A stretch of 63,316 nt of DNA, counting the filler, from Squatina squatina (taxonomy: Eukaryota): assembly GCA_031763465.1 (NCBI GenBank). It is 4 parts of 4 records of this genome, joined end to end, with 100 filler letters (N's around TTAATTAATTAA, not from the genome) between each part and the next. Parts side by side here need not be neighbours in the genome. Positions count along the whole stretch, not along the records: positions 50,036 to 63,316 come from JARFOE010916015.1; 3 more parts are not named here. The stretch is one strand, 5' to 3'. This document shows, piece after piece, positions 1,404 through 63,316 of the stretch. The position numbers and the translations under genes were made by a program. Each line of letters begins with the position of its first letter. The stretch's first letter is position 1. The notes under the pieces were generated by a model, which saw only the letters and a list, made by a program, of their open reading frames with translations, had not been told where the DNA came from and searched no databases.

Positions 1404-1503
1404 NNNNNNNNNNNNNNNNNNNNNNNNNNNNNNNNNNNNNNNNNNNNNNNNNNNNNNNNNNNNNNNNNNNNNNNNNNNNNNNNNNNNNNNNNNNNNNNNN
1501 NNN

Positions 1504-1623
1504 GAGACAAAGAGGTCCTGCAGAAAGCCTGCCAAGGAGTGACCCATGTTATTCACACTGCTTCTGTGATTGACATCTGGGGTAACTTCACCAAAGAAGA
1601 ACTAATAGATATCAATGTTGAAG
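1504..1623 (+). CDS. HSD3B1: 3-beta-hydroxysteroid dehydrogenase/Delta5-4 isomerase, penultimate coding exon (5' part lost in gap)
   Basis: DKEVLQKACQGVTHVIHTASVIDIWGNFTKEELIDINVE(G), then phase-1 GT donor at 1624, compatible with the acceptor at 3738-3739. Confidence 0.85.
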
Positions 1624-2744: not shown

Positions 2745-2908
2745 ATCATCCAAAACTTTGCTGCCCGTATCCTAACTTGCGTCTCATTCACCCATCATGG
2801 CTCCTAATCCTGCAACAGCTCGATTTAAAAATTCTCATCTTTGTTTTCAAATCTCTCCATATCTGTGTAAACTCCTCCAGACCTACAACACTCCAAGATT
2901 TATGCACT
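2745..2908 (+). mobile_element. LINE2-like ORF2 3' fragment (decayed)
   Basis: Similar to other L2-like copies in the window (AARIL...FKILI.VFKSLH-type residual translation). Confidence 0.55.
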
Positions 2909-3739: not shown

Positions 3740-4554
3740 GAAGTCGTCTTTTGCTAGAAACCTGTATTCAGCAGAATGTGAAATGCTTTATCTACACCAG
3801 TAGTGTAGAGGTGATGGGACCAAATGAAAGAGGCGATCCTATCTGTAATGGCGATGAAGACACAGTCTACCTTAGCAAACTAAAGTTTTGGTACAGCAAA
3901 ACAAAATACACAGCAGAAAAATTAGTCCTGACAATGAATGGATGCCTCTTACCTAATGGTGAGCGAATAGTAACATGTGCCTTACGCCCCATGTATATCT
4001 ATGGAGAAAATTGCCGCTTTATATTAGAACACATAGATGAAGGAATCATTAATGGAGATGTTCTGCAGAGAACTTCCAAGAAACAGGCTCTCGTGAACCC
4101 AGTGTATGTTGGCAATGTGGCTTGGGCCCATGTTTTAGTGGCCAGAGCCGTGAAAGATCAGGCCAAGAAGAAAATTGTTGGTGGAAAGTTCTATTACATC
4201 ACAGATGATACCCCACACATGAGTTACTCAGATTTTAACCATGAGCTGATGGGCCCGTTGGGGTTTACAATTCCAGAAAAGCTAAGCATGCCTCTGCTGC
4301 TCATGTACTTCATCGCTTTCATACTGGAAATGGTGGCATTTTTGTTAAGGCCATTTATCAGATATACTCCCAAAATAACCCGATACCTCATCATAATGCT
4401 CAACACAAAGTTCACCTTTACCAGCCACAAAGCCCAGAATGATTTTGGCTACATACCCCGTTACAGTTGGGAGGTGGCAAAAAAGAAGACCATTACCTGG
4501 TTGGCTTCAAGTATACAAGAGCGGAGAGATTTTTTAAATAAAAAACAACGCTAA
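3740..4554 (+). CDS. HSD3B1: 3-beta-HSD large terminal coding exon
   Basis: TTTGGCAG acceptor. Extended-SDR motifs FIYTSSVEV, catalytic YSKTK (YxxxK), TCALRPMYIYGE, NPVYVGNVAWAH, YYITDDTPH; stop TAA 4552-4554. One large last exon fits HSD3B1/2 rather than HSD3B7. Confidence 0.92.
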
Positions 4555-5043
4555 AGCTACAGGTGTAAAAGCATAAATCTTTGGGGTGAGGTGTTTGAAA
4601 TTCTGAGTGACTACTTTGGTGTACTGGTTAATGTCTTTCTGTAAAATTATGTATAAAGTTAAAAAAACATACACACAACAATTCGGTCTATAAATAGTAT
4701 TCAGCAGTATTTCTACTGTTATAAGGATTTAATTGACAAAACTTCCCANNNNNNNNNNNNNNNNNNNNNNNNNNNNNNNNNNNNNNNNNNNNNNNNNNNN
4801 NNNNNNNNNNNNNNNNNNNNNNNNNNNNNNNNNNNNNNNNNNNNNNNNTGGACATTTTTTTAAAAGTTGGTGAGGTTACAGGGATTGCTGCTGCAAGTGG
4901 TGAATGCCTTGGTTCTGACTTCAAGGGTTCTGGTCAGACCACTGACTCCCAGCCAAGGTTGCTGCAGTTGTCATCCCCCTTGGCCTGCAGTATAACAGGG
5001 TGATGGAGCAGAAACAGCGAAAAAGAGGACAAGCTGCTCACAA

Positions 5044-5945
5044 ATGGAGAAGGATGTGGGGAAGAAGGGCTCTAAGCCTTACCTACCTAGGATTTTCCGA
5101 CAGCAATTCTCTTACCTCAGCCTGAGCCAGGAGCAGTGTGTGAAACGTCTGCACTTTACAAAGGAGGTGCTCACAGAACTCTGCCACCTCTTGCAACCAG
5201 ATCTGCAGCTTCACAGCAGGGCAAGGACAGCATAGCTATGAAGGTGACCGTGGCCCTGAATTTCCTCATGTTGGGATCCTTCCAGCTGGAGCAGGTGACA
5301 TCTGTAACATCTCACAATTCGCTGTCCATTGCTGCATGAGAGGTGACAGGAGCTCTTAATGCCAGGAGAGGGGACTTTATGGTCTTCTCTCTGACCAGAG
5401 AGAAGCAGGCAGAGTGTGCACCTGGCTTTGCCAAGACAGCAGGCTTCCCCATGGTGCAGGGCGCCAGCGACTGTACGCACGTGGTTTTGAAGGCACTGCA
5501 TCTAAATGCTGAGATGTACCGCAACTGCAAAGGTTATCACTCGCTGAGTGTGCCATTCGTATGCAACCATCCCCAGCACATCATGATGGTGAATGCCCAG
5601 TATCCTGGCAGCAGTCATGATGCTTTAATTCTGTGCCAGTCCACTATTCCCTCAGTCTTTGTGCCACCACGACAAATCAGAGGGTGTCTAGTGGGTGACA
5701 AGGGCTAACCGCTGACCACCTAGCTCATGACTCCGCTCCACAACACAACTACACATAAACAGCATGCGTACAATAAGAGCCATGCTGCCACATAGAATTT
5801 GCTAGAGCACACCATTGTCGCTGCCTGGATAGCTCTGGGGGAGTCCTGCAGTACTCACCAGAGCGTGTCTCAAGATTCGGCGTGGTCTGCTGCATGTTCT
5901 ATGTGCTCATCATCATGAGGACATAGCCCTTGCCACCAGGCATAC
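5044..5945 (+). mobile_element. PIF/Harbinger transposase (HARBI1-like, DDE_Tnp_4) pseudogene, copy 1
   Basis: Frameshifted pieces PYLPRIFRQQFSYLSLSQEQCVKRLHF, VKVTVALNF...GSFQ, AGFPMVQGASDCTH, YPGSSHDA, GDKG*P with in-frame stops. Confidence 0.85.
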
Positions 5946-6099
5946 AGCGGCCCGCTAAGGAAGAGGAGAAAGCAAAAGGGAGGAGGCAACCCAGACATCC
6001 CCTTTCTCCCTGGGCTGTTGGTGATTGACTCTTCGAATTGTGGTACTAGTGAACGCAATCCCAATCTCCCATTCAACATTAGTCCCTTTACTTTTCCTC

Positions 6100-6670
6100 A
6101 GTTACTGACCTTCCCAGCGTCCTATTGATGACATGCTGAAATAAAAGCAACCACAAAAGCAACATTCCAATCCAGCTTTGTACATCAAGCCATCACTTCT
6201 GTACTGGAAAGGATGGGCTCCAAGCTCTGCGCAAAGCCCTGTGCCAGGTTGGTGCCAGACCTCTCCATGCTCCTTGGCTTTCTGGCAGGCCTGCCAATGC
6301 ACCAAACATTTAATTGTGCATACCCATCAGCATTCTTCTGTAGGCTGCCCCATCCAAGTTCTCATCTGAGTCTTCTGCAGCAGAATGCATGTGCCACCTT
6401 GTCCTCGGCAGAGCTGGCACCCGTGCTACACTTTCCCCCTGCTCCAGCTGTAGCTCACTTGTGCCCAGTGACTCCCCACATGCAGATCCCGCCTCTAGGC
6501 TACGCTCTAGAGTCTGCCAGTATCTGAACTTGTGGCTGCGAGTGTTAGATCGAATGATGGTGTTTCTTCTTCATCATCACTCTCCTTTCCCTCATCTTCT
6601 TGCACCATTGGATGGGCAGGTTGGATTTCTTGAATCTCTGAAATGAGAATGACCCAAGGATAGGTTTGTG
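6100..6670 (-). mobile_element. Possible remnant of the Harbinger second (Myb/SANT-like) ORF, convergent with the transposase
   Basis: GC-richer, decayed coding-like sequence with an acidic stretch (EDEGKESDDEEETPS) directly downstream of the transposase. No Myb motif is visible. Confidence 0.35.
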
Positions 6671-6770
6671 NNNNNNNNNNNNNNNNNNNNNNNNNNNNNN
6701 NNNNNNNNNNNNNNNNNNNNNNNNNNNNNNNNNNNNNNNNNNNNNNNNNNNNNNNNNNNNNNNNNNNNNN

Positions 6771-7321
6771 ATGGAGGAGAGGCGGTGAAGAAGGGGACAA
6801 GCTGCTTGCAGAGGGAGGAGGAGGAGAAGGGCTCTCAGCAGGAGACCTTGTCCACCTAGGGTCTTCAGAGAGCAATTCTTTTACCACAACCTGAGCCAGG
6901 AACAGTGTCTGAGGCACCTATGCTTAACGGAGGAGGTGCTCACATAACTCTGCCACCTCTTGCAACCAGACCTGCAACCTCACGCCAGGACAGTTGCTGT
7001 GAAGGTGGCCATGGCCCTGAATTTCCTCACGTCTGGATTCTTCCAGGCTGGAACAAGCACAATTTGCTGTCCACTGCTGCATAAGAGAGGTGACAGAAGC
7101 TCTTTATGCCAGGCGAGGGGACTTCATTGTATTCTCTCTGACCAGAGAGAGGCAGACAGAGCATGCACATGGCTTTGCCAGTAGAGTGGACTTCCCCATG
7201 GTGCAAGGTGGCATCGACTGCACACACATGGCTTTGTGGGCACCGTAAAGAACCGTTGAGTTGTACCACAACTGCAAAAGGTACCACTCGCTGAATATGC
7301 AGTTGGTGTATGACCATGCTC
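6771..7321 (+). mobile_element. PIF/Harbinger transposase pseudogene, copy 2
   Basis: Colinear and clearly similar to about 5000-5575 (ctctgccacctcttgcaaccaga, gtgaaggtggccatggccctgaatttcctc, ttccccatggtgcaaggtggcatcgactgcacaca); bounded by gaps. Confidence 0.85.
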
Positions 7322-7839
7322 NNNNNNNNNNNNNNNNNNNNNNNNNNNNNNNNNNNNNNNNNNNNNNNNNNNNNNNNNNNNNNNNNNNNNNNNNNNNNNN
7401 NNNNNNNNNNNNNNNNNNNNNAACCTGGGCCACTATAGCTGTTGAAGCTGGATTATCTTGTCAAATCTGGGCTCTTACTAGTCTGTATAACATGACTTAA
7501 TTGCTAATTAAATTCTGTGACTCATGAGGAGAATATATGTTAAAAATTAGTGCTATCATAATGAATATACACTCCACAAACTAATTAAAAATCAGGAATC
7601 TTGATAAAGATTCAATAGGATAAATGATAATCATTCCAAAGAATTTTCTACAATACCAGATATATATTTGACATAATCCTACAATTTGTAAAATATGTCA
7701 TTAAGTGATATAGGTTTTAATATAAAACATAATGTACACAAAACCAAGTTTTTTTAGAGCAGTCCGTGTGGTGGTCCCACACTTACAGTAAACTCAATGT
7801 ATGGCTTTACAAGGGTACAATTAAAGTACAATTTGCATT

Positions 7840-10800
7840 TTATTTGTTTAAAAGCGTTTTAAGTGAACGGGTTAGTGTGCTTACGATAGCCGTCATGGTA
7901 ATTGAATGTCGCGCTAAAACCTTAACATTAGGGTCGATGGGGGCTGCTCCAAATACTGCTTCAGCAGCTCTCAGTAGACAAATATAGTTCATTACAACCT
8001 CGTCTACCTTAGCAACAATTTCCTGTTGCTGTGTTTCAGAATTCATTACTTTAACTAATCGCATGCAGGCTTCTGTTAAGCAACACAGTACTTGGAAGCT
8101 GGAAGTCATAGCTGAGAGCATTTCCTCTGGGCTTTTTTCTGCGGCAGCCATTTTCCTGCAAGCACTTCCCAACTCTCTCGATTCAACTGACAACAGTTGG
8201 TTGTATTGGTTAAATCGGAGTTGATAAAGATCNNNNNNNNNNCTGGTTTTCCATGTTCTTTTTTTCCAATGCTTGCCTGCAATAGAGACAGCAGTTCGCT
8301 GGCATCTTTCTGTGCTGTAAGAAATCCATCTGGCAATGCATACACCTTGTCCTTCAGAGCATTGATTCTGGCAATCCTGCTGTCAAATGCCATGTCATTA
8401 AGGTTAATGCCTGTGCGTTCCTGCTCTTTGCCACTGTTGCTACCAGTCTCCCTGCGAGGCGCCACAGTAGGTCCCACAGCTTTCCTGGCATTTGCAATGC
8501 TGGAGGATGTACAGAATGCTTCAGATGCACTGGAGAACAGATGATTTTGGTCCAAGTGACACAACTGGCCCTTACTGCCATAACCATCATCATCGTCATC
8601 AGCATCATTGTCTTTATTAAGGAAACAATAGGTAAAAGGACCATGACACTTCCAGTTGCTCGTCTCCACCTTTGGGAAAGGCATCGGCCTAATGTGTCGA
8701 AAATCCTTGTGCACTGAAAATATCTGTGATGATCTCCGACTCTCCTTTCCATCTGCAGTAGTGGAGCAGCAGGGTGAATTCATCGCCACTGATTCTTGAG
8801 AGTGGCTCTTGGATAATCTCTCGCCCAGAGGAAGTTCAACTCTTTTCTGTACAGGTTGAGGATTGGGTACTTCGGGGAGATCAGAATATTGGAATCCTAT
8901 GGAACTCTTTGATTTTTCTAATAGGGTTTCTACGCTTCCCATTCCTGGTGTAACACTGCTGCTGCAACGCCTCAGCACCTTCCTTCTGGGAGGAATTTTA
9001 AGGCTTCCTCCACCAACATCACAGGCCTTTCTATGAAGTGCTGTTGCACGCACTTGCTCTACTTTGGGAAGATCAGGTGATTCTTGGCAGGTACTTGGCA
9101 CCTCTGTATCATTGCAAATGTGTGATGGCNNNNNNNNNNGCTTTGAATTGATTAGTGGGAGCTGAAGTTGCACCTCCTCTTCCTCCTTGCTCAGGCTCTG
9201 TGCAAGCTACACTATGGGTGGCAGAAAAACACAGAGAATCATTAAGCATCTCCTTGACAACATGCTGCAATTTACAATCTGGGTTGCACTGCTTGTCCTT
9301 AGCAGAGAGCTGCTTCTCATGAAAACCTCCAGGCAGAGCTTTATCATTCTCACTGGCAGCTCCTTTACTCAGACTGAGACATTGCTCAGAATGCNNNNNN
9401 NNNNNNNNNNNNNNNNNNNNNNNNNNNNNNTGTCTCCTTTCCTTATTAATTGTTTCCTCAAGCTGCCTAGGTTTTTGAGTCCTCTGTTTAGCTAAGTCAT
9501 TCTCTCTCCTCAACTTGGATGGTAAAGATGTAAAAAGAATATTTCTAAAGTTATATAGTGAATTCTTACTTTTACTCGAAGCAAATAAATCCTGGTGTCT
9601 AATATGGCCTGGGTCTTTTGATCTTGAAACTAATGAAGGGAATGTTAATGTGTTAGACCTATAATATTTAGAAAATTCCTGATGATCTTTAACACAGTCA
9701 TTTTCATTTGGGAAAGTGATTGATGTGCTTTTAAGATTAGGAAATGTGCTGAGTTTAATTTCTTGAGATGAACTACTACCATCATCAGCCTTGGACTTAC
9801 TTGTTCTTTCCACCATATCTGTATTACAATTTTGAGAGCTAACTTCACGAGATGAACCTGACAAAAGAGGATTAGTTTCTTGATCTCGAAAATAATCATT
9901 CCCTTCACTCTCTATCTTACTTTCAAATCTTAAATGTTGCAGCTCAACATCTGCGTAAATATTATCTCTGTTTACTGAGGTACCTGTGGTTTCTTTAATC
10001 TTGGGTACTCGGTGGCACCCATCACGTATGGTACCAAATATTGGTTCAGCATTTGAAGGCGCATGCGTATTATGGGCTGTTCTTCTATGACACATGGATT
10101 CAGCTTGNNNNNNNNNNNNNNNNNNNNNNNNNNNNNNNNNNNNNNNNNNNNNNNNNNNNNNNNNNNNNNNNNNNNNNNNNNNNNNNNNNNNNNNNNNNNN
10201 NNNNNNNNNNNNNNNNNNNNNNNNNNNNNNNNNNNNNNNNNNNNNNNNNNNNNNNNNNNNNNNNNNNNNNNNNNNNNNNNNNNNNNNNNNNNNNNNNNNN
10301 NNNNNNNNNNNNNNNNNNNNNNNNNNNNNNNNNNNNNNNNNNNNNNNNNNNNNNNNNNNNNNNNNNNNNNNNNNNNNNNNNNNNNNNNNNNNNNNNNNNN
10401 NNNNNNNNNNNNNNNNNNNNNNNNNNNNNNNNNNNNNNNNNNNNNNNNNNNNNNNNNNNNNNNNNNNNNNNNNNNNNNNNNNNNNNNNNNNNNNNNNNNN
10501 NNNNNNNNNNNNNNNNNNNNNNNNNNNNNNNNNNNNNNNNNNNNNNNNNNNNNNNNNNNNNNNNNNNNNNNNNNNNNNNNNNNNNNNNNNNNNNNNNNNN
10601 NNNNNNNNNNNNNNNNNNNNNNNNNNNNNNNNNNNNNNNNNNNNNNNNNNNNNNNNNNCTGAAACTTGAAACCACCTTTGTGTCTCTCTACGGAAAGTAG
10701 TGCTTTCTAAGTCAAAAGAAGTTGTGCGATGACAGTTCTTTGCAATCAGTGTGTTGTATTTGCTGCTGGATGACATATCATCACCCAATTCTGTCTTTTT

Positions 10801-11294
10801 GTTTGCATGTTGCCTTTTCATTGATACATTACCATCAAAAGCTATCTTGATACTAGTATCACCTGCCTTGCTTTTTTGCTTACTTGGGCATGAATACATC
10901 AGAGATCCCATCTGCAGTTTGCTGAAGTAGTCTGTAACAGATTTTGTCTCCATTGTCTCTGGCTCCATTTCAATTTCCTCAGAAGGAAGAATTTGTTTTG
11001 AAGGCACAGCTTTGGACTTTGCATTGCTTCCTCGTTGAGCAGTCAAGGAATGTGTTGCTTTTGGAATCATTTTGGAAGTGGGCCCTACATTCTCATTCTG
11101 AGAGATTGGGAATTCAGTTTGCTCTTCTTGAAGTTGCTGATAGCCTTCACTGGTGGCCACAAGCATATGCATGGAACCCTCAGAATGCTTCTGTGCTGAG
11201 GCTACCTCAGAGCTTTCAGTCATTTCAGAGGAGTTTGTTTCATTGCCAGAATCCGATGACGACTCAGGACTATAAGCTCTTAATATCACTACAC
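7840..11294 (-). CDS. FRMPD4: FRMPD4 (Preso1) 3' coding region with long C-terminal extension; interrupted by four N gaps
   Basis: Acceptor at 11296-11295, then (G)[61 protein letters not shown]. Ends in a helical domain [28 protein letters not shown]...[13 protein letters not shown] (TAA 7842-7840). Frame changes coincide with 10-N gaps. Confidence 0.88.
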
Positions 11295-11585
11295 CTGTAT
11301 GCCATAAGAGAATAAACAGCCAATTAATTACTTCATCAATAATGGTGGNNNNNNNNNNNNNNNNNNNNNNNNNNNNNNNNNNNNNNNNNNNNNNNNNNNN
11401 NNNNNNNNNNNNNNNNNNNNNNNNNNNNNNNNNNNNNNNNNNNNNNNNNNNNNNNNNNNNNNNNNNNNNNNNNNNNNNNNNNNNNNNNNNNNNNNNNNNG
11501 TTCTGGAATGTTTCCAAGTTGTTAACAAGTTTACAGATGGAACATTATGACAGTCAATGAATAAATGTTACTATGGTGAAAGAAC

Positions 11586-12659
11586 CTGAACTGTCATCTG
11601 TTTGTTGAACAGACTGCTCCTCAGAAGCTGCCAGCGCCTCCAGTGCTTGCAAAGTGGACACCACTGCATCATCCAATGCCTGCTCACCACTTTGGTCTTC
11701 AGCCTGTGTTGGAATAGCATCTATGAGTGACACAGGGATGTCATCACCTGGAGAGCATTTGGTTTGGCTGGTCTCTCCCGAACTGTGTGCCGGCTGATGC
11801 TGACCATCTTCTTCATCTGAGCTGTTGTCTCTGAAGCCAGGTGGAGGGGCAGCTATTGCTATATTCAGTGTGTGAAGAAGAAAATCATCTTCATCGTCAT
11901 CATCGCCTCCAGGTGGAGGAAGTGACGTTAAGTCAATTATGTCATCACTAGATCCAGAAATATTCAGAATGTCAGTTTTGTCTGCCTCCCCAAGTGGTAT
12001 ATCTTCCTCACAGCTGGCCTCATCTTCATCCTCAGCATCGTCTGTGGTCTCTGAGTAACAGATGTCATGTAACAACGGCTCTTCAATGCTTTCTGCATTT
12101 GCAAACATTCTGCTATCGTTTATGTTTGCATAAACAGCATTCGTATCAATGTTATCTACATCGATCCCTGGGAACGAGAACTCTGAGCATTTAACGTCAC
12201 TTGCATTGGCCAAGTACATAGATGTCTGTTGGTCTAAATTGCTTGGACTATCATCCAGCAATCTTTCATATCCAAGGTTTCTTGGGTTAAAGGCAGCTAC
12301 ATTGTGATCCTCAAAGACAAAGGATACTTTTGCTCCTCTTGGAGATTCCTGTCCTGTTTTGGCAGGCTCTTTCCCAGAGGAGGACAGCCTGTTAAAAGCT
12401 GTGTTTTCAGCTTCCATTGCATCTATATACTCAGCACCTAGATGACTATGCTCATTAACATCTGTAATCTCAGTTATTAAAATCCCCCTGGAATCTTCAT
12501 GGTAAATTGGATCATCTGAGAAATCTACATTTTTCTGCTTTGTTTCTCTAATGGATGATGGCTGAGCATCTTCCTTTTTAGCCCTGACATGGCATGAGCT
12601 CTTCGGTAAATAGTTCCATTCTAAGCTGTGCGTGTTATGTTTAGTCTTGTAATCTGGGC
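11586..12659 (-). CDS. FRMPD4: FRMPD4 large internal exon (1074 nt)
   Basis: AG acceptor 12661-12660, phase-1 GT donor 11585-11584. QESPRGAKVSF, EEPLLHDICY, SGSSDDIIDLTSLPPP, Homer-ligand-type PPPGFRD and IPVSLIDA match recalled FRMPD4. Confidence 0.92.
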
Positions 12660-13487
12660 CTAGGTTAAAAGAAAGAGAGAATTGTTCACAAACATTCAGC
12701 ATCACTGATTAACACATAAAATACGGAATGCTTTAACAGTAACAATTATACAAACAAGCGAGTCGTTCTCCTGTAGTGTTGCGCAGGAGGGTGAAAATCA
12801 AGTGCAGGCTTCAGCTGAAATGGAGTGAGAGGACGCAGGATAATTTCACCACAGTTCATGGAGCAACAGCACTCTCCCATTCCTTCCACTTCCAGATCCT
12901 CATGCTCATGGTGCTGAGTGTTTCACCCAGCAAAAACCTTCTGACTCACAAGCTACTACTCCTTGAATGGGTGTTTCTGGGCTGGCGCTTGGGCAGGTAA
13001 GATNNNNNNNNNNGGATAATTTCACCACAGTTCATGGACATAATTCGGTCTCTGTTTTAAAGTCATACATTCTGTTCTTGTTTTAATACTTTCATAATAA
13101 ATTCCCACGTCCACATTTATAATGGAAGCTGTTCATGTCGTCTGGTTACGCAGTAATTACACCTGCCTGCCAGTGGTAGGCATGCTGCACCTCCAGTAGG
13201 GGAAGTAATTTCCAGACTATTAACTTTATATTTTTTCTCTCCATGGTAACCTATGCTATATTTTCCTCATCCTTTTTCCCTTGAAGGAAGCTGTAAAACC
13301 TTATTCTTGCTTCTTCTTCCTCCCACTAATGACTATGAAAATGACAGTAATTTAAAAATGAATTAGTGTTTCATTGGTTAAAATCTAGGCACAAAGACTG
13401 ATTTTTTTCAGTCAGTCAAAAGCCCAGGCACCGAATGCATAGAATTTGCAATATGGAAACAGGCCCTCTATGGCTCATCTGTGTCAG

Positions 13488-13587
13488 NNNNNNNNNNNNN
13501 NNNNNNNNNNNNNNNNNNNNNNNNNNNNNNNTTAATTAATTAANNNNNNNNNNNNNNNNNNNNNNNNNNNNNNNNNNNNNNNNNNNN
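13488..13587. other. Artificial linker N44-TTAATTAATTAA-N44
   Basis: Palindromic 12-mer (13532-13543) giving TAA stops in all six frames, centred in exactly 100 positions. Confidence 0.97.
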
Positions 13588-13800
13588 CCCGCGCCGTCCT
13601 TCTCTCTCTTCCCCCCCCTCCTGTGGACACACCTTCGTCCTGAGGCCCGGTGTGGGGAATGCAGAGAGAAAGAGAGAGGAAAGGAAATTAAGAGCATATT
13701 TTCATAAGAATTCTCTTCTGTATTCTTTTTGATGCACCAGAAGAAGGCTTGATTGCAAAAAAAAAACTCCCCACACACAGACGCCCGCAGTTTTTTTTTG
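13588..13800. promoter_or_regulatory. CpG-enriched contig start, possibly a gene 5' region or intron 1
   Basis: cccgcgccg start and raised CpG content continuing for about 1 kb; lies upstream of the RAB6A exons in the same segment. Confidence 0.3.
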
Positions 13801-16753
13801 ATTCAATCATTTTGCGGTTGTGTTCATGATGGGTTTTGACTTGTGCATTTATTTATTCGAAGATTTATCTTTTAGTTCTAAATTTACTTTTTTTTGTGTG
13901 TAAAGTGAACACGTCGTTATTGCAACTAGGATGCAAATATTTAAATCCATACGTCTTTTGGGCAGATATTTCAGGACTAAAAAGCTGCTTTCAAATTCAT
14001 CCGCATTTTGCTGCTGTCTTGCTGTGCACCAATTTACTATTGACTAACCCTGTTTACACAATAAGGGCGTTTTTAAAAAAAATGGTTTTAATTGTCTCAA
14101 TCGTAATTACCTCAAATCGAGACCTAGATTTTGGTAACATCTTTGTGCAACTGATTCTGCTCTGGAGGGTAAAGTATGCTGGAAGAGATTTTTTATCTTC
14201 CAGCACTGATCTGATAGTTAATTGAAATCTGGCCTACTAACGAGTGTAGCGTTATCTTGGAGATCCAAACAACAGAACCTGAATCGGTTTTGTCTAGTCC
14301 TAAGAATAAGTAGTCTCATCATTTTTCTGTAAATGATATTAAAACGATTGTGTCCTACAAATATTGTTGTGTAATGGTTTCATTGAAATGTGCCTCAATC
14401 AGATTCAGCACAGATAATTTGCATTTTATCAGCGCATGAAACGGGCAAGGCTGCCACTCATTTGAGTCCACATCTTCATTGCGAATCTCGATTATGCAGC
14501 AACGTAACCCCATATTAAATAGGCAGATTAACTAGGAAGTAAATATTGCGTTTGCTCAATGTATCGGTTTCCGAAATATGAATGCAGCTCGTAAANNNNN
14601 NNNNNNNNNATATTAACACATAATTTGATTTCGATAAAGCTGGGATGTAATGGAAATGGCCTATTGATTTGCGAGTAGAGATCGCCACATTTTAATTTTG
14701 ATTAAACGGTGTCCTGGGTTTTATGTGTTAACGACGCAGACATATGTTGCCGGCTGACGAAGTTGAGTAAGAACAATTTTGTACAATTAAGGCATAGCCT
14801 TTTTCATGAATCGCCTTTCCGACAGTCATTCAGTACATTCGTCGTCATGAATGCCTAGATATAAAATCGTTATATATTCCCATTGAAGTGTGTTTATTTT
14901 ATAACAATTTTTTGTGTTGTAGTGTGTACCCTACTCTTAAAATGTTGACCGTTAAGGTAATGAAAATTGTATTATAGAAGCATTAAAGGCTTCTGGAAGA
15001 ACAATAATGAAAGCAAAACGTTCACTCGTTACTTTGATTAAAAGAGCCCAGATAACTGGAATCTGGGCGTGGTGAGTCAGTCTGCATCATTCACAGCACA
15101 GAATACAGTAGCACAGGTCGATATTTTATTGTTTCTAGACACTAAAACTAACCACAACATTGTACACCAATGCGCCCTCGATTTTGTGTACTATATCAGT
15201 AGACTGAAGTGTTTCCTATCGGAGGACCTTTTAAAGCTATTACCTTCTATAAAAAAAACGGAGGTTATTTTTGTGCACATCAATGCTTTGCAATAATTGT
15301 GCAGTTTATCTGGACAATTTGTGGAAATACCCCTGTTTATTCAAGTGAATAATTACAATAACTGATCTACGTTCATTTCAACATTGTACTGTAAGAAATG
15401 CTTGGCGTTCCAGACAGTTGGGTTAACCTGCCATTTTGGATAAATGGTATTTGGGTAAAGAGCTTACTACTGTAATCTTTTCCCAATTTTTACTCTCCAC
15501 ATATATTGTGAAATCATTTGTGAAGGGAAAGGGAGGAAAAGCCAGACAGACGAGTGGTCAGGGCCTCACTGCCTCATAACCATTGTCAAATCATTTGAGC
15601 TTGAGTGCTCATCTGATGGGAGCTCCACTTGATTTGTGATAATCAAATTTACTGCTTATCTTTTCTGTTTAGGTTGCCATATGCACACATCATGAAATAT
15701 CAACACTGAACCTGCTATGAAGCTGTAGGCTGACACAACAATTATTTTTTGCTTGCAATTCCAAGCTGTAATGTTTAAGTTAACTCTACATGTTTCAATG
15801 ACCCAAAAAATAATACATTTTTATGTTGCAAGTAAGTGCACCGTTGAGTTTTTCCTGAGAAAATAACCCCCAACCAGAGATCACTCTTGTCCAAAGTTCA
15901 GAATTTGAAGGAGGGAATCACATGCTGCCCCACACAAGTTCCATAAATGTCACTCCTCTATGAGATGACTGTATGAGAAACTGCAAAATATTGTGGTTAT
16001 TCACCATCATTTAGCCATTCTGCATGGCGGTCAGGGATAATCCACGGATCATGACGGCCTCCTCAAGTCCACAGAATGCAGCCCATTGCTCGTTGCTGCA
16101 ACCTTGCTATAGTGCAGACTCGGCACATTCAGGTTTTTATTTCTATGGGCCATGTGTCCATACAATGGAGCCCCAAGAGCCACATTTAAAGTTTAAATGA
16201 ATGTTCCCATATCTTGGGCAACTGATTAGGATTTATTTGCCAGTGAAGCAGCAATTCTAAAAGCAGTCCTTTCAAACCTCCAAGGCCATAACATTCAAAC
16301 AACACAGACCAAGAAATAAATAGACGAGCAAGTAGGATTGAGTTGCCTGGGCTTTGGGAACTGCCGCAGGCTGAATACTTCTGATGTGGACCTCCAAGCA
16401 GCAAGCATGGGTGACACACCTGTCAGACACATCCAAATCCAAACAAATTATGTTTGGGCTTCACCTAGAACTCGAGAACCTGCAACCCGGCTTTGAACAA
16501 ACCCTTTCCTACACATCAAGCCACGTCGCAAGAGGAGAAAGCAAATCTGCAATAGCGACTGACCCACAGATGAGCACAACAGCAACCCCAACCAAAAGTG
16601 GGCAGGACCCCTTTGTTTCCTCAATCCCAGATGCCTAGAACAGTCTGTTTCTGCNNNNNNNNNNNNNNNNNNNNNNNNNNNNNNNNNNNNNNNNNNNNNN
16701 NNNNNNNNNNNNNNNNNNNNNNNNNNNNNNNNNNNNNNNNNNNNNNNNNNNNN

Positions 16754-20023: not shown

Positions 20024-20075
20024 CCTGACTTTTTCCAGCATTTTTTGTTTATATTCTAGATTAGAGCATCCGCAG
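20024..20075 (-). repeat. Fragment of the same family as the palindromic element at 61791-62030
   Basis: ttccagcattttttgtttatattctagattagagcatccgcag is close to the reverse complement of 61805-61848; cut by a gap. Confidence 0.7.
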
Positions 20076-20185
20076 AATTTCACTTCTTTATTTAATTTAA
20101 GTTGCTCATTTGGTAATTGCTAGCTGTAAAGGCTTTATGTTTGAAGAGAAAAAGCTTTAAATGTAAAAATTGGTAAAGATAAAGT

Positions 20186-32500: not shown

Positions 32501-33601
32501 AATGAACTTCACGTATCCAAAACGGGCTGAGAAATTACAATACAGTACCAGCAACCATCAAACCTAGCAATCCATAGTCTCTGAATATGAGGTCCAGCAT
32601 AGTAACAGATACTGTAAAATGTAGCTGCCAACCATTTTGAAAGTTGCTAGCATAACTGTATGCTTATTGAATTCAGTATGAAAGTCAGGCTTCTACAGAA
32701 TCTTTCAAGNNNNNNNNNNNNNNNNNNNNNNNNNNNNNNNNNNNNNNNNNNNNNNNNNNNNNNNNNNNNNNNNNNNNNNNNNNNNNNNNNNNNNNNNNNN
32801 NNNNNNNNNGAGCACAACAGTGAAATTAGAACACTGAGTAGAGAAGCTGCAAAATTGTTCAAGGGTTTAAAAAGGAATCGCTTATCTCCTGTGGTTGTGC
32901 ACAAGGGCAGTGAGGACTACATGTAGTTTTCCAATGATGCAGGGTTGGAGGATAAACCCTACTTTAAACTTCTACGTTCTGTCCTTTTGTTTTGCCATTG
33001 TAACTTCTTGCATCCCCAGTTATAATGGGGACTAGGTATGTCGGCGCTACATGCTGCAGTTTTCCATCACTGCTGATGTTTCAGCGCCCCTACTAATGGG
33101 AGGGTGTATTTACAATGTAACAGGTTTACGTGGGAAGTTTCCATGATAAATGTAGACAAAAATGTATAATGGAACAGTTGACAGGAAATGCACAAATGCA
33201 CACAGATGTTAAGATTTTTAATACCTTAATAGAAGAATTGCTGGATGCCTTTTCTTTCATAAAACAATCTGCTTTTCTTTTTGATGCTAGTAGCAATCTG
33301 AAAGTCACCTGAAGAAAGGTTTTTCATACTTCGGTGAAATGATTTGTGCAATGTCTCAAAAAAAAATACATGACAAGTTTGAATGTTGGAATCTTAGCTT
33401 TGTGATCAAAAATCAGCTGATTCCTGTAAATGCTGGACACGAAGACCAATATGCCATCTGGTCATGAATCATTGCATTGTTAAAAATGTTGAGACCAATT
33501 TTATGTTGTAACACCCTTTTCTGTCTTTGCAAGCTTTATTCATGATGAGGCAGAGCTGGCCACAGACATCAACTTCTGGTGCCTCTGAGGGAACTTATGA
33601 C

Positions 33602-34074
33602 CTCCCAGTCGATGCTGGCACTCTTTGCCCAATCCCAGTCAAAGCTGATACCTTTTGCTCACTCCCAGGCAATGCTGAAACTCTTTGCCCATTCCAGTCA
33701 ATGTGCACACAATTTCCTCACTCCCAGTCAATGCTGACACTCTTTGTTCACTCCTCCTCAATGCTGACACTCTTCACTCACTCCCAGTCAAGGCTGACAT
33801 GCTTTGCTCGCTCCCAATCAATGCTGACACTCTTTGTTCACTCCTCCTCAATGCTGACATTCCTCACGCACTCCCAGTCAATGCTGACACGGTTTGCTCA
33901 CTCCCAGTCAATGCTGACAATATTTGCTCACTCCCCCTCAATGCTGACACTCTTTGCTCACTCCCAGTCAATGCTGACACGCATTGCTCACTCCCAGTCA
34001 ATGCTGACACTCTTCACTCACTCCCAGTCAAGGCTGACATGCTTTGCTCGCTCCCAATCAATGCTGACACTCTT
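33602..34074 (+). repeat. 30-bp minisatellite, about 16 units, consensus CTCCCAGTCAATGCTGACACTCTTTGCTCA; truncated by gap
   Basis: Directly visible 30-nt periodicity with more degenerate units at the 5' end. Confidence 0.95.
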
Positions 34075-36234
34075 NNNNNNNNNNNNNNNNNNNNNNNNNN
34101 NNNNNNNNNNNNNNNNNNNNNNNNNNNNNNNNNNNNNNNNNNNNNNNNNNNNNNNNNNNNNNNNNNNNNNNNNNAAGTCTTGTATAAATTTGGGTTAGGA
34201 AAAGCAAATTGTGGATGGAAACCTATTTGGAGATGGAAAGCAATTTACTATTTTGAAATTATAAGTGCGTACCAATTATAGGTAATTGTCAAATTCATAG
34301 TGACTACCTATTTTTCTATATTTCCGAATAAATTAAACTTGACTTGATCATTAGAAAATGGACAGAGGCCAGAGCAAATTCCATTTTATATTCACAAGCT
34401 TAATAAAATGCTTAAGTTTAGTGTGCAATACTTGAGGCAAGAGAGAAACCAACTTAAAAGGTATTAAAAACCATGGAGGATAAATAATTCTGGTTCCCTA
34501 TAAGCTGTCTAAAATTAAGGTGGAAATCTTGCCCAGCTTTAGTTAGGCCAAGTCTCTTCTGCACATCTGTAGAGATGGTAATTTATCTCGTAGAGAAATT
34601 TGTTTTTAAATACTATCTCGAGGACGTAAATAACTAAAAATCTCAAACTACTTTCTGTGCTGTTACGTGCTGAACTGCAAATACAATCCTTGCTTTCTGA
34701 AGTATACTTGGGGTAGAATAAACTCAAAATCCATTGCATAAGTTATACTTTGCTAAACTCAGATTTTTTGTATTGTGCATTAAATTTGTACATTCAGTAT
34801 ACTGAAGAGGCTATCTATTATATTAGTGTTAATTGTAGAGAAGTCTTATTTGCATTGGGATATGAAATGAGATGAATCCAGAAAACCACTGCAACTCTGG
34901 CAGAATATATAGCATCAGAGTGCACAATTGTTTTTTTTTTAAATCTTGTACTGTTCCATAGATTTGTAGATCCTTAACCTGATTTAATGACGAGCACAGT
35001 TTACTGTGATTTACTCTATTCCCTTTCATAATCATAACTCCCAGTGTAAACAGACCAAAAAAGGCACCATGTTCTATTTAAACTGGTACAGTATTTATTT
35101 ACTGTTGTATTCCAATATACTAGTGAAGTGTGTAGCCAAATTCACCTATAGAGCCTAATTTTCTATTTGCCCACAATCACAGGCTACCTTGTTTTGACTA
35201 AATATATGAGAGAGAAGCAAGAAGAGAGAACTGTTGTGCAGTGCTAACGCAGTTGTGAATTTAAAAGAACGTTACAAATCAGTTCACTCCTGGAGTCCTT
35301 GATGAGGCTGTCTAGTGCAATATTTGTAATTTCTAATGCAATTTTCACTAAACTGTGATTAAAATTTGTAAAAAAAAAAAAATTATTCAGCCCCAATGTA
35401 ATAACTAAAGTGCAAGAAATTACACCTGATTTCATACTTTAGCAACATTAGTGACTGGAAATGGGACTGCGTATCTTCCAAAGTGAGAATTGTGGTAATA
35501 TTTACAATATAATGTCCTCCCCTTACCTAGGTATTAAAAACCTCTTGCCTGGTAGGAAATATTTGTATTTTTAATCTTCTTGCCTGTATTTCTCCTTTTC
35601 CCTTTCCGTTTCCCCATTTCTTCCCCACCCTACCTCAAATAGACTCCTCCTATTTCACGTTGAAACAGTGTACTGCTCCACTGAACATAGTTGGTGGACC
35701 GTCCACAGGAACTCCTCAATGTTGGGCATCTGAGCTGCCATTGGAGGAGCGCTCTCCCTATTATTTGTGGAGGAAAAACATTGCAAATATTCATATCTTC
35801 CAGATTGAAGGTTTTTTTTCTAATTTCTTTCAGAATACCTAGCAGGAACAAGCAAATTATATTGTGTCTGACCTAAATTCCATTTTCCCTAATATAATGA
35901 AAATTGGGCAGGGCCAAATATTTTAAAATGATTGTAGATTATATTTGTGGACAGGTTGTACTGTACGCATGACTTTTTCCAAAAGGCTGGCCACGTCCAA
36001 TTTCTCTACATGAAGCAGGTAAGTCCTTTTTAAGAGGCAAGGTGATTTGCATTACCTAGTTAGTTGGGGTGTGAATGTGTGTGTGCATGTGAGAGATTGG
36101 ATATTTTAAGTGTAAATTAGCAGATAGACTAGATACTGAATTGTATTTGGCCAGGGGAGTATAATGACATTGAGCCCAGAGTATAAATTATGTACTGGGT
36201 GCAATTCTCTTAAACTTCACCCCAAGAAAGAAAG

Positions 36235-42289: not shown

Positions 42290-42420
42290 CTCTTCCACTC
42301 TTCCCTCACCTTCACATGGTCCATCTCTGACTCTTCCCTTCCATTCCTCGACTTATCTGTCTCCATTTCTGGGGATAGACTCCTCACAAACATCTATTAC
42401 AAGCCCACTGACTCCCACAG
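42290..42420 (+). mobile_element. Penelope-like element reverse transcriptase fragment
   Basis: FHSSLTFTWSISDSSLPFLDLSVSISGDRLLTNIYYKPTDSH carries the PFLD and YYKPT motifs of the PLE RT C-terminal region. Confidence 0.8.
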
Positions 42421-60118: not shown

Positions 60119-60802
60119 CTGAAAAAGAGGGAAGCAGAAAACTAATAGAATAGGCCAAAATTACACAAGCACTTTTAACATTTGAATCATACACAAATAT
60201 ACGGCCTTTAATACTTTCGAAAGGAAATCGGTTATAAACCTCTCAAGGGAAGATTTTCCAGGGATATAGAGAAAGACGGGGTGAGTGGGAATAATTTGAA
60301 AGCTCATTCAAAGAGCCAGCACAGGCATGATGGGCTGAATGGTCTCCTCTGTGCTGTAAGAATCTATGGGGTGGGCGTTATTTACGTTGTGTGCAACCGA
60401 CACAGAGTGCTCCTGTTATACAGAGCACCAGATATTCAGTTCCGGGAGCAATTTTACCTGAAACCATCTGCTGGGAAAGTGACAAGATTGGCTGCGACAC
60501 TGATTTTTCTTCCACCCTGATTTTATGATCTACTGAATGAAGTAGAGAGCAATATTGGGCAGTGTGTAGAACCGGTGTTCCTGCTCATCTTTTAGGATTC
60601 CTGCCCGGTGAGCTTTATTGAAATTATCCTCTGATATAATGGAATGGAATATTATGAGGATTACAATGGGCTACACATGCAGCTACATTCTATTCGTGAT
60701 ATTGCCCCAGAAGAATATCTAACCCTTATGATTCCATATCAGAAGACATTATCCACAGAACCAACGGTTATTTAGTATTTCAACATTAGCACAAGTACTC
60801 AC

Positions 60803-60970
60803 TGGAGCAGCTCTAAGGTTTTACAGCAGAGTATGAGTTTTCGCAGTTCGGGAAGACATTGGTCCGTGAACTGATTTCCGTCCAGGTACAGCATCGTCAC
60901 AGACTGGTTCATGCTGAATGCCGACCCGAGATCTTCAATGCAAGCAGCTGTCAGATTGTTATCCTGCAAT
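60803..60970 (-). CDS. NLR-like gene, 168-nt exon encoding two ribonuclease-inhibitor-type LRRs
   Basis: TAG acceptor, GTGAGT donor, phase 2-2; LQDNNLTAACIEDLGSAFSMNQSVTMLYLDGNQFTDQCLPELRKLILCCKTLELL. Confidence 0.87.
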
Positions 60971-61059
60971 CTAAAGATTAAAAATTAAAATCCGGATTCA
61001 GTCCAGCTCGAAAAGTCAGTCAGATTTTGCTTTCGGAACATTGAAGGGAACTTAAGGAA

Positions 61060-61620
61060 CTAGGAATGGGAGGAGGCCTCTCACCCCTCGATCGTCATCG
61101 TCTACTGTTAGATCATGGCTGATGTGTATTTTAACTCCATCTACCCGCCTTGGGTCCATAATCCCTTAATACCATTCGCTAGCAAAATCGATCACTCTCC
61201 TTTTTGAAATCTTCAATTGACCCTCCAGCCTCAAAAAAGGTTGGGGGGAGAGAGTTTGAGATTCTCACTACATTTTGTGTGAAGAAACATGACCTGAAAT
61301 CCAACTTGAACGGCCCAGCTCCAATTTAAAAATTATCCACCCCGATTTTGCACTACGGCCACCAGAAGAAATAGTTTCCCAGTGTCTACCCTATGAAATT
61401 GTTTCATCATCTTAAACACATCAGTTGGATCCCCTTTACGTTTAACGATCAAGGGAGTCGTAGCCTATTCTATGCAGAATTAAGTGTCCTCATAATTGGA
61501 CACCTTCAGCCTCTGTATCATTCTGCTGAATCTGCACTGCACTCACTCCAATGTCCTTTCTGTGGTACGGTGCAGTACTCCAGCTGAGGTCTAACCAGAG
61601 TTCTGTACAGCTGTAACATA
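61060..61620 (-). mobile_element. CR1-like LINE 3' fragment (intronic)
   Basis: Homologous to 52290-53185 (gatcatggctgat, cagtactccagctgaggtctaaccagagttctgtacagctgtaacat). Confidence 0.7.
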
Positions 61621-61888
61621 CTTTCCACAATAATGCACGATACTGCATCATATGCCAAGCACATCCGATTATTAAACCGAACCCGCCAGGCATTGATTGG
61701 TCAAAGATAAAATTGGGTGGGGTGTGAAACGGGTGCCCGACTCACGCGACCCGTTACTCCTGGGCTGGTGTGCAAGGTTAAAATCGTGAGACAGACGCGA
61801 AATACTGCGGATGTTGGAATCTAGAATACAAACAAAAAATGCTGGAAATACTCAGCAGGTCAGGAAGCATCTGTGGAGAGAAAAACAC

Positions 61889-61929
61889 AGAGTCAACGTT
61901 TCGGGTCGATGACCCTTCATCAGAACTCT
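61889..61929 (-). ncRNA. Minimal type-I hammerhead ribozyme motif (intact core)
   Basis: AGAGUU-CUGAUGA-a-GGGUC-auc-GACCC-GAAA-C-GUU/GACUCU: helix I AGAGUU:GACUCU, helix II GGGUC:GACCC, palindromic AACGUU in place of helix III. Confidence 0.72.
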
Positions 61930-61934
61930 TCGTC

Positions 61935-61975
61935 GGAGTTCTGACGCAGGGTCACCGACACGAAACGTTGACTCT
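61935..61975 (+). ncRNA. Degenerate minimal hammerhead motif (core change CUGACGC, helix II mismatch)
   Basis: GGAGUU-CUGACGC-a-GGGUC-acc-GACAC-GAAA-C-GUU/GACUCU. Confidence 0.55.
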
Positions 61976-62054
61976 GTTTTGTTCTCTCCACAGATGCTGC
62001 CTCACCTGCTGAGTATTTCCAGCATTTTTTGTTAAAATCGTGAGTGTCACTTAC

Positions 62055-62141
62055 TCCAATCTCTGTGTTTTACAGTCCTGGTGCCTCAGTGCTGCAGATA
62101 ATAATTGGACTCCTGTGTCTCCAATATTATTGTGATTCAAC
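62055..62141 (-). CDS. NLR-like gene, 87-nt single-LRR exon
   Basis: ttttCAG acceptor, GTAAGT donor, phase 2-2; LNHNNIGDTGVQLLSAALRHQDCKTQRL(E), a 29-aa RI-type LRR. Confidence 0.87.
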
Positions 62142-62384
62142 CTGAAAACCAACAGACACAGATTCAGAAATGAGGGAAGGGAAAAGTCTTTCTTCTCGTA
62201 AAATCCGTTCCATCTCACCAGAAATGTTCTCAAAAGGTTGCTGTAAGTTGCAGAGAAGAACACCAGACGGGTTCAAAATCAAAAAAATAAATTAAAAAGA
62301 GCAAATAAGGAGAAATTAGCATTAAGATCGATATCCAAAGAACACTGATATAGATTAATGGTCCAAAGATCCAGCGTGGAGCTG

Positions 62385-62620
62385 AGGAGAATGTTTCTCA
62401 TGAACAACGACTTGTTGTGATCTGGAAAGCACTGCCTGATGGGATTGTGGAAGCAGATTTAAAAGCACCTCCCAAAAGGCAATTGGATGAATAAAACACC
62501 ACCAACATTTCCAGGACTACGGGGAAAGTGCATGGGAGTGGGAATATTTCGACAGCTCTTTCAAAGAGCCGCCAGAGACAAGAGGGGCTGAATGGCCTCC
62601 CACTGTGCTCTATCATTAGA
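62385..62620 (+). mobile_element. CR1-like LINE 3' end (a similar fragment lies at about 60200-60365)
   Basis: gatctggaaagcactgcctga...gggctgaatggcctcccactgtgct. Confidence 0.7.
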
Positions 62621-63009
62621 TGATACTGTGAAATATTACTATCGGTTCAACTTAAAATTGGGCGTCCTTTAAATGCTTGACAGGAAACTGAAGGGGTTGT
62701 GCCCAATGCTATTTTTTACCCTTCACCTGGCATAAAACCCGATTGAAATTAACGATGAGTAAACTCGCGTGAGGCTTTAACTGGTTGCCGATTAAATACC
62801 CTCAATTTCCAGCTGGGTGGTTTAAGATAGAAGCCACTGCCGGGCAGACAATCTCCCTATGTAAGGAAAGTTTGAAAATTCAATCATGAAATAAATTCCT
62901 CTCTCCCTTAAGTTATTTGAGTTAACACGATAGGAGTGCAACACTTTGCAAGGCATATGCCTTATAATTTCACCTAGGGCACCGACAAAATTGAGGAACA
63001 GCGCATTGG

Positions 63010-63316
63010 TATCCCATTCTCCACTCCTCCCGAGCACCATCCCACATTCTCCACTCCCCCCGAGTACTATCCCCATTCTCCACTCCCCCGAGTACTATCC
63101 CCATTCTCCACTCGCCTGAGCACTATCCCCATTCTCCACTCCCCCCGAGCAATATCCCAATTCTCCACTCCCCCGAGCAATATCCCCATTCTCCAATCCC
63201 CCCGAGCACTTTCCACATTCTCCACTCCCCCCAAGCACTATCCCCATTCTCCACTCCCCTCGAGCTCTTTCCCCATTCTCCAATTCCCCGAGCACTATCC
63301 CCATTCTCCTCTCGCC
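63010..63316 (+). repeat. 28-29-bp C-rich minisatellite, about 11 units, consensus TATCCCCATTCTCCACTCCCCCGAGCAC; runs off the window
   Basis: Directly visible periodicity. Confidence 0.95.

What the first reader, a model, noticed from the sequence alone, without database searches (positions are those of the whole stretch)
61791..62030. Palindromic insertion carrying two oppositely oriented minimal hammerhead ribozyme motifs inside an NLR intron
Seen: about 100-bp inverted arms around a 7-nt loop. The minus strand of the left arm (61929-61889) reads AGAGUU CUGAUGA A GGGUC auc GACCC GAAA C GUU/GACUCU, which gives both conserved boxes, a 6-bp helix I, a 5-bp helix II and a self-complementary AACGUU instead of helix III. 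Predicted cut lies between 61895 and 61894. The + strand copy has CUGACGC and a helix II mismatch. Known: Penelope-like retroelements carry such minimal type-I hammerheads, thought to work as dimers through the palindromic helix III. Inference: this is a short non-autonomous PLE-derived element. Its intact ribozyme lies on the NLR pre-mRNA strand but downstream of its own antisense arm, so hairpin formation should compete with, and probably silence, cleavage.
Basis: partly seen in the sequence, partly recalled or inferred. Interest (0 to 1): 0.75.

Follow-up and report, generated by a model that had tools for sequence, protein, structure and literature searches.

The report
Fold-back Penelope fragment with silenced hammerhead
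A 240-base palindrome carrying two hammerhead-ribozyme motifs sits in an intron of a likely immune-receptor gene, but it is likely the ordinary head-to-head stub that a Penelope-like jumping gene leaves when it inserts, and its self-cutting RNA is predicted to be locked shut by the hairpin.

Summary
There are 98-bp inverted arms (90 of 98 matched), an intact minimal hammerhead on the minus strand, a damaged one on the plus strand, and an intron position between LRR exons. With the hammerhead, these are the published anatomy of Penelope-like element (PLE) insertions. The arm belongs to a high-copy repeat family in four other organisms' runs. That family continues upstream of the hammerhead and forms head-to-head copies with scattered junctions, while this junction is almost unshared. 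So this is likely a one-off, 5'-truncated fold-back insertion, not an amplified palindromic element. Two of the six helix I pairs come from junction filler. In the pre-mRNA the hairpin is predicted to beat the ribozyme fold by 45 kcal/mol. I could not link the family to a PLE coding region, and no run of the window's own species was available. The scan noted the same pattern before on other DNA (three head-to-head notes). One lead remains: the predicted cut lies beside a branch-point/acceptor/ATG motif. Verdict: new member of a known kind, low interest.

The parts
61777..61790 (+). Left copy of a perfect 14-bp target-site duplication (AT-rich)
   Evidence: (D5); chance of a 14-base match about 5e-9 per placement, about 1e-5 over 2500 placements
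61791..61830 (-). 40-nt 3' tail, present on the left arm only; the family's 3' end
   Evidence: no partner in the right arm; a second copy at 20025-20087 ends within 2 nt of the same point; family cover in run X1 rises from 59 to 14,401 to 108,662 across 61780-61806
61831..61927 (-). Left arm: 5'-truncated pseudo-LTR-like piece, sense to the host pre-mRNA
   Evidence: 4593, 192 and 9119 contigs laid in runs X1, X2, X5
61889..61929 (-). Intact minimal type I hammerhead motif; predicted cut 61895/61894 after GUU; helix I pairs 5-6 use junction bases 61928-61929
   Evidence: consensus in the supplement of PMC4209133
61868..61896 (-). Branch-point-like A (61893), pyrimidine tract, CAG acceptor-like site (61873-61871) and ATG (61870-61868) directly after the predicted cut; splicing inferred, not shown
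   Evidence: sequence; the four listed family variants in the tract keep or add pyrimidines
61928..61936 (.). 9-nt junction filler containing the 7-nt loop; near-copy of the hammerhead core (7 of 9 to either arm), forming a nested palindrome with 61941-61949
   Evidence: P about 0.001 for that one register; barely covered in related runs
61937..62030 (+). Right arm: inverted, tail-less partner with a damaged hammerhead (A9>C, helix II mismatch); its match to the left arm runs 3 nt on into the target duplication
62031..62044 (+). Right copy of the 14-bp target-site duplication; intron positions +11 to +24
62055..62141 (-). Host LRR exon (87 nt) upstream of the insertion; donor at 62054
60803..60970 (-). 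Host LRR exon (168 nt) downstream of the insertion, NLRP3-like repeats

Best explanation
This is a 240-bp insertion with a 14-bp target duplication, likely a one-off, 5'-truncated, head-to-head copy of the terminal repeat of a Penelope-like retroelement, whose hammerhead is predicted to be inactive in the host pre-mRNA. Shown: the duplication, the arms, the one-sided 40-nt tail, the junction palindrome, the intron position, and a high-copy family with other head-to-head copies. Inferred mechanism: an element-encoded endonuclease made staggered nicks 14 nt apart in an AT-rich site. Reverse transcription began at the tail end and ran through the hammerhead, 33 nt past the predicted cut, so the template was uncut or re-ligated RNA. 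It stopped at the 5' edge of helix I. The new DNA end re-copied 9 nt of the core, folded back on itself and copied its own strand for 98 nt, ending at a 3-nt match to the other target end. I favour this fold-back about 60:40 over two separately primed strands. Later point changes broke the right-arm motif. In the host transcript the antisense arm is made first and zips up the ribozyme and the acceptor-like site. With one motif per strand there is also no partner in cis for the dimer these motifs are thought to need. The element would be inert apart from adding a roughly 98-bp RNA hairpin 22 nt from a splice donor.
For: Anatomy matches published PLE units: an adjacent inverted 5'-truncated copy and a 30-40-bp tail at one end (PMC8557442 passages); inverted pLTRs with 8-10-bp TSDs, a 31-bp tail and palindromes at the inverted junction read as self-priming (PMC3846280); minimal hammerheads 100-700 bp apart on opposite strands (PMC4209133). 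The motif fits the PLE consensus, and many listed PLE motifs share its C-G-U-U arrangement. In vitro a lizard PLE starts at two sites that bound the tail and uses uncut RNA (PMC11167929). Family cover ends at about 61791 and about 61927; loose ends behind 61927 (57 contigs in X1, 86 in X5) show a longer parent. One search lists 15 joints from left-arm to right-arm positions with scattered ends (105 more not shown) and near-zero cover of this junction. Majority lines of loose ends in 5 of 6 contig runs show a G-C to A-U double change at the base of helix II, U-G to U-A in helix I, and a variable loop. Folding: helix II probability is at least 0.98 alone, 0.0 in all six pre-mRNA prefixes tested; forcing the ribozyme fold costs 45.5 kcal/mol. 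A PLE-type RT fragment lies at 42293-42418; its relatives carry weak RVT_1 or GIY-YIG matches, so PLEs exist in this genome.
Against: No RT or GIY-YIG coding region was linked to this family: three protein searches with the arm's open frame found nothing useful, and three DNA collection scans were empty. None of the runs is the window's species (best share 0.13), so an amplified palindrome private to this species is not excluded. The joints come from contigs laid at 80% likeness, where the tool warns of repeat artefacts, and the motif's own self-complementarity can mimic some. The covariation rests on majority lines with 0.53-0.63 agreement that do not cover C3-A6; the X2 line does not keep helix II. 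No empty-site joint was among those listed. Rfam recognises no hammerhead here. Six of the 8 arm differences are transversions while the duplication is perfect, which fits two templates as well as decay (P of 0 changes in 14 bp is 0.30).
Confidence: 0.78

Rival explanations
1. Same origin, different junction chemistry: both nicked target strands primed reverse transcription, one at each of the two start sites (with and without tail), possibly on two different RNA copies, and the two cDNAs were joined head to head through a templated filler.
For: The lizard PLE protein cuts and extends both strands and starts at two sites bounding the tail. The right arm ends 40 nt short of the left, which is tail length, with a 3-nt match to the target. 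Both states of one arm difference (61919/61945) occur in the family lines.
Against: Both arms stop at the same base (61927/61937), which fold-back gives automatically. Both share features that differ from the X1 majority (T at 61849, a 2-nt longer spacer). The 61919 difference is a CpG-type change.
Confidence: 0.3
2. The parent is a non-coding, hammerhead-bearing SINE or retrozyme-like family moved in trans by PLE proteins, and this is a truncated inverted copy of it.
For: No coding region was linked. Non-LTR retrozymes are reported in one cartilaginous fish and proposed to derive from pLTRs (preprint 10.64898/2026.07.22.740005).
Against: Retrozymes are head-to-tail tandems, mostly with canonical hammerheads; this copy is head-to-head with a minimal motif, a tail and a TSD.
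Confidence: 0.12
3. The palindrome is itself an amplified non-autonomous element.
For: It has clean ends and a perfect TSD. The window's own genome could not be searched.
Against: The junction is nearly uncovered in four related runs, other junctions are scattered, the ends are asymmetric by 40 nt, and the second copy in the window shows only the tail end.
Confidence: 0.06
4. The host has co-opted the insertion as a regulatory switch (cleavage, editing or splicing control) in the LRR gene.
For: It lies 22 nt from the donor and puts a long hairpin, a hammerhead and an acceptor-like site on the transcribed strand.
Against: It looks young (perfect TSD; CpG observed/expected 0.94 against 0.39 for the window). 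Related LRR-gene contigs stop matching at the insertion edge. The ribozyme fold is predicted absent.
Confidence: 0.03
5. The palindrome is an assembly or sequencing fold-back artefact.
For: No read or contig spanning this locus was available.
Against: The arms differ at 8 sites, a TSD brackets the unit, unique host sequence continues on both sides, and the flanking exons splice in frame.
Confidence: 0.02

Closest known systems
Insertion units of endonuclease-positive Penelope-like elements (Penelope/Poseidon, Neptune): pLTR plus adjacent inverted 5'-truncated copy, 30-40-bp tail, TSD (PMC8557442, PMC3846280, PMC2377424; passages read)
   Same: Head-to-head truncated copies, one-sided 40-nt tail, junction palindrome, short TSD, AT-rich target. 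The ATG lies 13 codons from the short end and 26 from the tail end; Pen2a has 12 and 22 residues.
   Different: No coding region between the repeats, so the whole unit is 240 bp. The TSD is 14 bp against the 8-10 bp seen in the rotifer passages. The parent ORF and clade are unidentified.
Minimal type I hammerheads of metazoan PLE pLTRs (PMC4209133; parts 1-2 of 4 and supplement parts 1-2 of 3 read)
   Same: Both boxes, an extra base after A9, G10.1-C11.1, palindromic 15.2/16.2, no helix III loop; opposite-strand pairs were already reported.
   Different: No cartilaginous fish appears in the Table S1 or Figure S3 text that I read. The two motifs here are only about 15 nt apart inside one hairpin, and helix I is lengthened by junction bases.
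PAc Poseidon element of Anolis (PMC11167929; parts 1-2 of 4 read)
   Same: The tail equals the span between two RT start sites, the cDNA passes through an uncut hammerhead, and targets are AT-rich.
   Different: In PAc the ORF starts in stem II, upstream of the cut; here the candidate ATG lies 24 nt downstream of the cut, behind an acceptor-like site. Nothing was assayed here.
Non-LTR retrozymes (PMC7229834 passages; preprint 10.64898/2026.07.22.740005 part 1 of 5 and passages)
   Same: Short, non-coding, type I hammerhead, proposed PLE origin.
   Different: Retrozymes are head-to-tail tandems that can cleave as dimers and circularise; this unit is head-to-head and self-blocking.
Conserved intronic hammerheads of amniotes (RECK, CTCL, DTNB; PMC6155905 passages)
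   Same: A type I hammerhead on the sense strand of an intron.
   Different: Those are canonical and deeply conserved; this one is minimal, apparently young, and buried in a hairpin.

Membership tests
Minimal type I hammerhead motif (PLE type) | CUGANGA and GAAA boxes with a base after A9 and G10.1-C11.1 | tested here: met
   left arm, against the consensus; the right arm fails (A9>C)
Minimal type I hammerhead motif (PLE type) | Helices I and II pair; palindromic 15.2/16.2; NUH at the cut | tested here: met
   pair probabilities 0.72-1.0 for the 41-nt motif alone; GUU triplet; a dimer fold can be drawn at -23.5 kcal/mol, against -13.5 for each monomer's own best fold
Minimal type I hammerhead motif (PLE type) | Helix pairing kept across family copies | tested here: inconclusive
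   one double change in helix II and one one-sided change in helix I in majority lines of 5 of 6 contig runs; no alignment of single copies was possible
Minimal type I hammerhead motif (PLE type) | Self-cleavage as dimer or with protein help | not testable with these tools
   needs an assay; no RNA run was listed
Rfam hammerhead families | Covariance-model match | tested here: not met
   no hammerhead family at E up to 10 on 60500-63316 or at gathering score in the window
Endonuclease-positive PLE insertion | Inverted 5'-truncated copy adjacent to the terminal repeat | tested here: met
   family continues upstream of 61927; other head-to-head joints
Endonuclease-positive PLE insertion | 30-40-bp tail at one end only | tested here: met
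   40 nt at 61791-61830; the family's second end is not a clean step in the depth tables
Endonuclease-positive PLE insertion | Short target-site duplication | tested here: met
   14 of 14 bp; an empty site was not seen directly
Endonuclease-positive PLE insertion | Parent family encodes a telomerase-like RT plus GIY-YIG frame 5' of the terminal repeat | tested here: inconclusive
   no link found; no genome held; a PLE-type RT fragment lies 19 kb away, unlinked
Non-LTR retrozyme | Head-to-tail tandem units, each with a complete hammerhead | tested here: not met
   head-to-head, one motif per strand
Amplified palindromic non-autonomous element or MITE | Many copies sharing both ends and the interior | tested here: inconclusive
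   junction nearly uncovered in four runs of other organisms; own genome not searchable
NLR gene (host) | NACHT domain 5' of the LRR exons | not testable with these tools
   it would lie beyond the window end; only LRR exons were seen, best match NLRP3

The most novel reading that the evidence does not exclude
In the parent element the hammerhead overlaps the branch point of its own 5' intron (cut at 61895/61894, branch-like A at 61893, then pyrimidine tract, CAG and ATG). Cutting and splicing would then exclude each other and sort transcripts into uncut templates and spliced mRNA. Sense-strand intronic copies would carry both a cut site and a cryptic acceptor, and fold-back copies like this one would be tolerated in genes because the hairpin masks both, so head-to-head copies should be enriched among sense-oriented intronic insertions.
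Probability: 0.15. Interest if true: 0.5.

Novelty: new member of a known kind. Interest (0 to 1): 0.15.

Why it matters
As it stands it matters little: it is a compact example of a known insertion pattern, in a lineage (likely cartilaginous fish) that my three paper searches did not show as covered for PLE hammerheads. Its use is as a record of mechanism. Both arms run 33 nt past the predicted cut, which fits the in vitro result that uncut RNA is the template, and the junction keeps a templated filler that can help tell fold-back from twin priming. If the overlap of cut site and branch point is real, it would give a testable role for PLE hammerheads, which the papers read call unclear, and tie it to the intron retention of PLEs.

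Tried and rejected
Rfam: no hammerhead match; the MIR408 match (26 bits, gathering score 64) reflects the hairpin only. No whole genome is held, so no copy count in this species. Degenerate motif scans of metagenome, viral and prokaryote contigs: 0 matches each. Sequencing runs: no RNA holder listed, best DNA share 0.13; this says nothing on expression. Raw-read run X10 gave only 6 reads on the arm. No empty-site joint was among the joints listed; 105 were not shown. Protein searches with the arm's 45-residue open frame: nothing among longer or similar-length proteins; the one profile hit, P0023, is a tandem-repeat translation and was rejected. tblastn of the 22 RT-fragment relatives against the insertion: P0016 gave a 14-residue match (E 0.009), but an unrelated stretch of P0011 scored E 0.010, so it was rejected as noise. 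ADAR-type origin of the arm differences was rejected as unsupported: the transitions are few (2 of 8). Clustering of 4 of 8 differences in the core and helix II has P 0.03 before any correction, so it was not used. Coding at the ATG is unproven: family variants downstream include replacement changes. The 2017 RNA Biology paper on dimer cleavage of such variants is not held; I know it from recall only and rest nothing on it. Paper searches for shark + Penelope + hammerhead (4 listed, none on topic by title or abstract), shark genome + Penelope + transposable elements + NLR (12 of 21 listed) and Penelope + hammerhead + intron + branch point + splice site (0 papers) showed no description of this family; Repbase and Dfam could not be searched. 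The script set the second exon 3 nt too long and printed a stop at the junction; the donor visible gives 168 nt and an open frame (worked out by hand, not re-run).

Full report
Observation. The palindrome is real: arms 61831-61928 and 61936-62033, 90 of 98 bases matched, 7 nt apart, with z = -21 against 200 shuffles. The minus strand of the left arm carries both hammerhead boxes, an extra A after A9, a 5-bp helix II, a palindromic AC/GU in place of helix III and a GUU cut site between 61895 and 61894. My descriptor found this one hit in the window and none in 40 shuffled windows. The plus-strand motif has A9>C and a helix II mismatch. Rfam does not recognise either. The motif does fit the consensus for PLE minimal hammerheads in the supplement of PMC4209133, where many entries share the C-G-U-U arrangement.

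Host context. On the minus strand an 87-nt exon (62141-62055), a 168-nt exon (60970-60803) and a terminal coding exon from 60118 encode leucine-rich repeats. The best solved-structure match is NLRP3; Pfam LRR scores stay under cut-off. The insertion lies in the 1084-nt intron, with the duplication at intron positions +11 to +24 and the hairpin starting at +22. 'NLR' is inferred, since no NACHT domain was seen in the window. The named hits of an RT fragment at 42293-42418 are from rays and a shark, so the host is likely a cartilaginous fish.

A perfect 14-bp direct repeat brackets exactly 61791-62030. The left arm is 40 nt longer than the right, and a second copy at 20025-20087 ends within 2 nt of the same point. 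The nine bases between the family-derived arms (61928-61936) are a near-copy of the hammerhead core, 7 of 9 to either arm, and form a nested palindrome. These features match published PLE insertions: an adjacent inverted truncated copy and a one-sided 30-40-bp tail (PMC8557442 passages), TSDs and palindromes at inverted junctions (PMC3846280 passages and Discussion), and minimal hammerheads close together on opposite strands (PMC4209133).

The family. No genome is held and no run of this species was listed (best share 0.13), so I laid seven distinct runs of related organisms (X1 twice) on the locus. The left arm drew 4593, 192 and 9119 contigs in X1, X2 and X5, and 6 reads in X10. The whole locus drew 4766, 23,976, 3327 and 20,109 contigs in X1, X4, X3 and X6. 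These counts are not copy numbers. In X1 cover begins at about 61791 and ends at about 61927, and loose ends behind 61927 show that the family continues with other sequence. Each arm is therefore a 5'-truncated piece, and helix I pairs 5 and 6 of this copy come from the junction; by those majority lines the family helix has 4 pairs. One search lists 15 joints from left-arm to right-arm positions with scattered ends, mostly in X4 and X6 (105 more not shown), while depth at 61935 is 0, 68, 0 and 27. The tool warns that such joints at 80% likeness can come from repeats. Majority lines of loose ends in X1, X3, X4, X5 and X6 show a G-C to A-U double change at the base of helix II, U-G to U-A in helix I, and variation at N7 and in the loop; the X2 line does not keep the helix, agreement is only 0.53-0.63, and C3-A6 are not covered. 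That fits an empty site but does not show one.

Mechanism (inferred). An endonuclease cut the AT-rich site with a 14-nt stagger. Copying began at the tail end and ran 33 nt past the predicted ribozyme cut, so the template was uncut or re-ligated. This agrees with the lizard PLE, which starts at two sites bounding the tail, extends both strands and uses unprocessed RNA (PMC11167929). The second arm arose either by fold-back of the cDNA or by priming from the second nick. Both arms stop at the same base and share traits that differ from the X1 majority, so I favour fold-back about 60:40. The arm differences do not decide it.

Function in the host (predicted). Alone, the motif forms helix II with probability at least 0.98. 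In all six pre-mRNA prefixes starting at the donor it is 0.0, even in the shortest, and forcing the ribozyme fold costs 45.5 kcal/mol. There is one motif per strand, so no dimer can form in cis. Published minimal motifs cut poorly even as dimers, or only with protein. The insertion looks young, with a perfect duplication and CpG observed/expected of 0.94 against 0.39 for the window.

What failed. I could not link the family to an RT plus GIY-YIG frame. PLE-type proteins exist in this lineage and a fragment lies 19 kb away, but it is unlinked. Membership in PLEs therefore rests on anatomy and the motif, and a non-coding family moved in trans remains possible.

A lead. Directly after the predicted cut come a branch-point-like A (61893), a pyrimidine tract, CAG and ATG. 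The four family variants listed within the tract keep or add pyrimidines, and the 61894 variant keeps the branch consensus (the consensus is recalled). Penelope of Drosophila has a 5' intron whose end abuts helix I, in a different geometry. One search found no paper with all five terms. Splicing here is untested.

Verdict. A real feature and a new member of a known kind. My reading before consulting the scan's notes was already a truncated PLE copy with an inverted partner; three notes on other DNA describe the same head-to-head pattern and a fourth a single short stub. They are not independent evidence. Figures of the papers were not visible, the third part of the 2014 supplement was not read, and the 2026 preprint's supplements were not seen; any of these could name this family. 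Interest 0.15.

Noticed in passing
window 20025-20087 (+): Second copy of the same family's 3' end including the tail, 86% identical over 63 nt, ending within 2 nt of the same point; its upstream part is not readable in the window.
   Followed up: yes
window 42293-42418 (+): Isolated fragment of a Penelope-type reverse transcriptase region, 64-86% identical to 22 proteins including those of rays and a shark.
   Followed up: partly
window 61868-61896 (-): Branch-point-like motif, pyrimidine tract, CAG and ATG directly after the predicted ribozyme cut; a second acceptor-like stretch lies in the tail near 61820.
   Followed up: partly
window 3712-4554 (+): Long terminal exon of a 3-beta hydroxysteroid dehydrogenase gene (Pfam 3Beta_HSD, E 1e-60).
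   Followed up: partly
window 8106-12708 (-): Several long open frames that look like large exons of one host gene; not identified with a tool.
   Followed up: no
window 63013-63316 (+): Tandem array of 28-29-nt units running off the window end, inside the next intron of the LRR gene.
   Followed up: no
window 33512-34281 (+): Tandem repeat of about 33-nt units giving repetitive open frames.
   Followed up: no
window 60260-60360, 61500-61630 and 62380-62620: Pieces that look like the common LINE/SINE 3' ends of cartilaginous fishes (recognised from recall, not tested).
   Followed up: no
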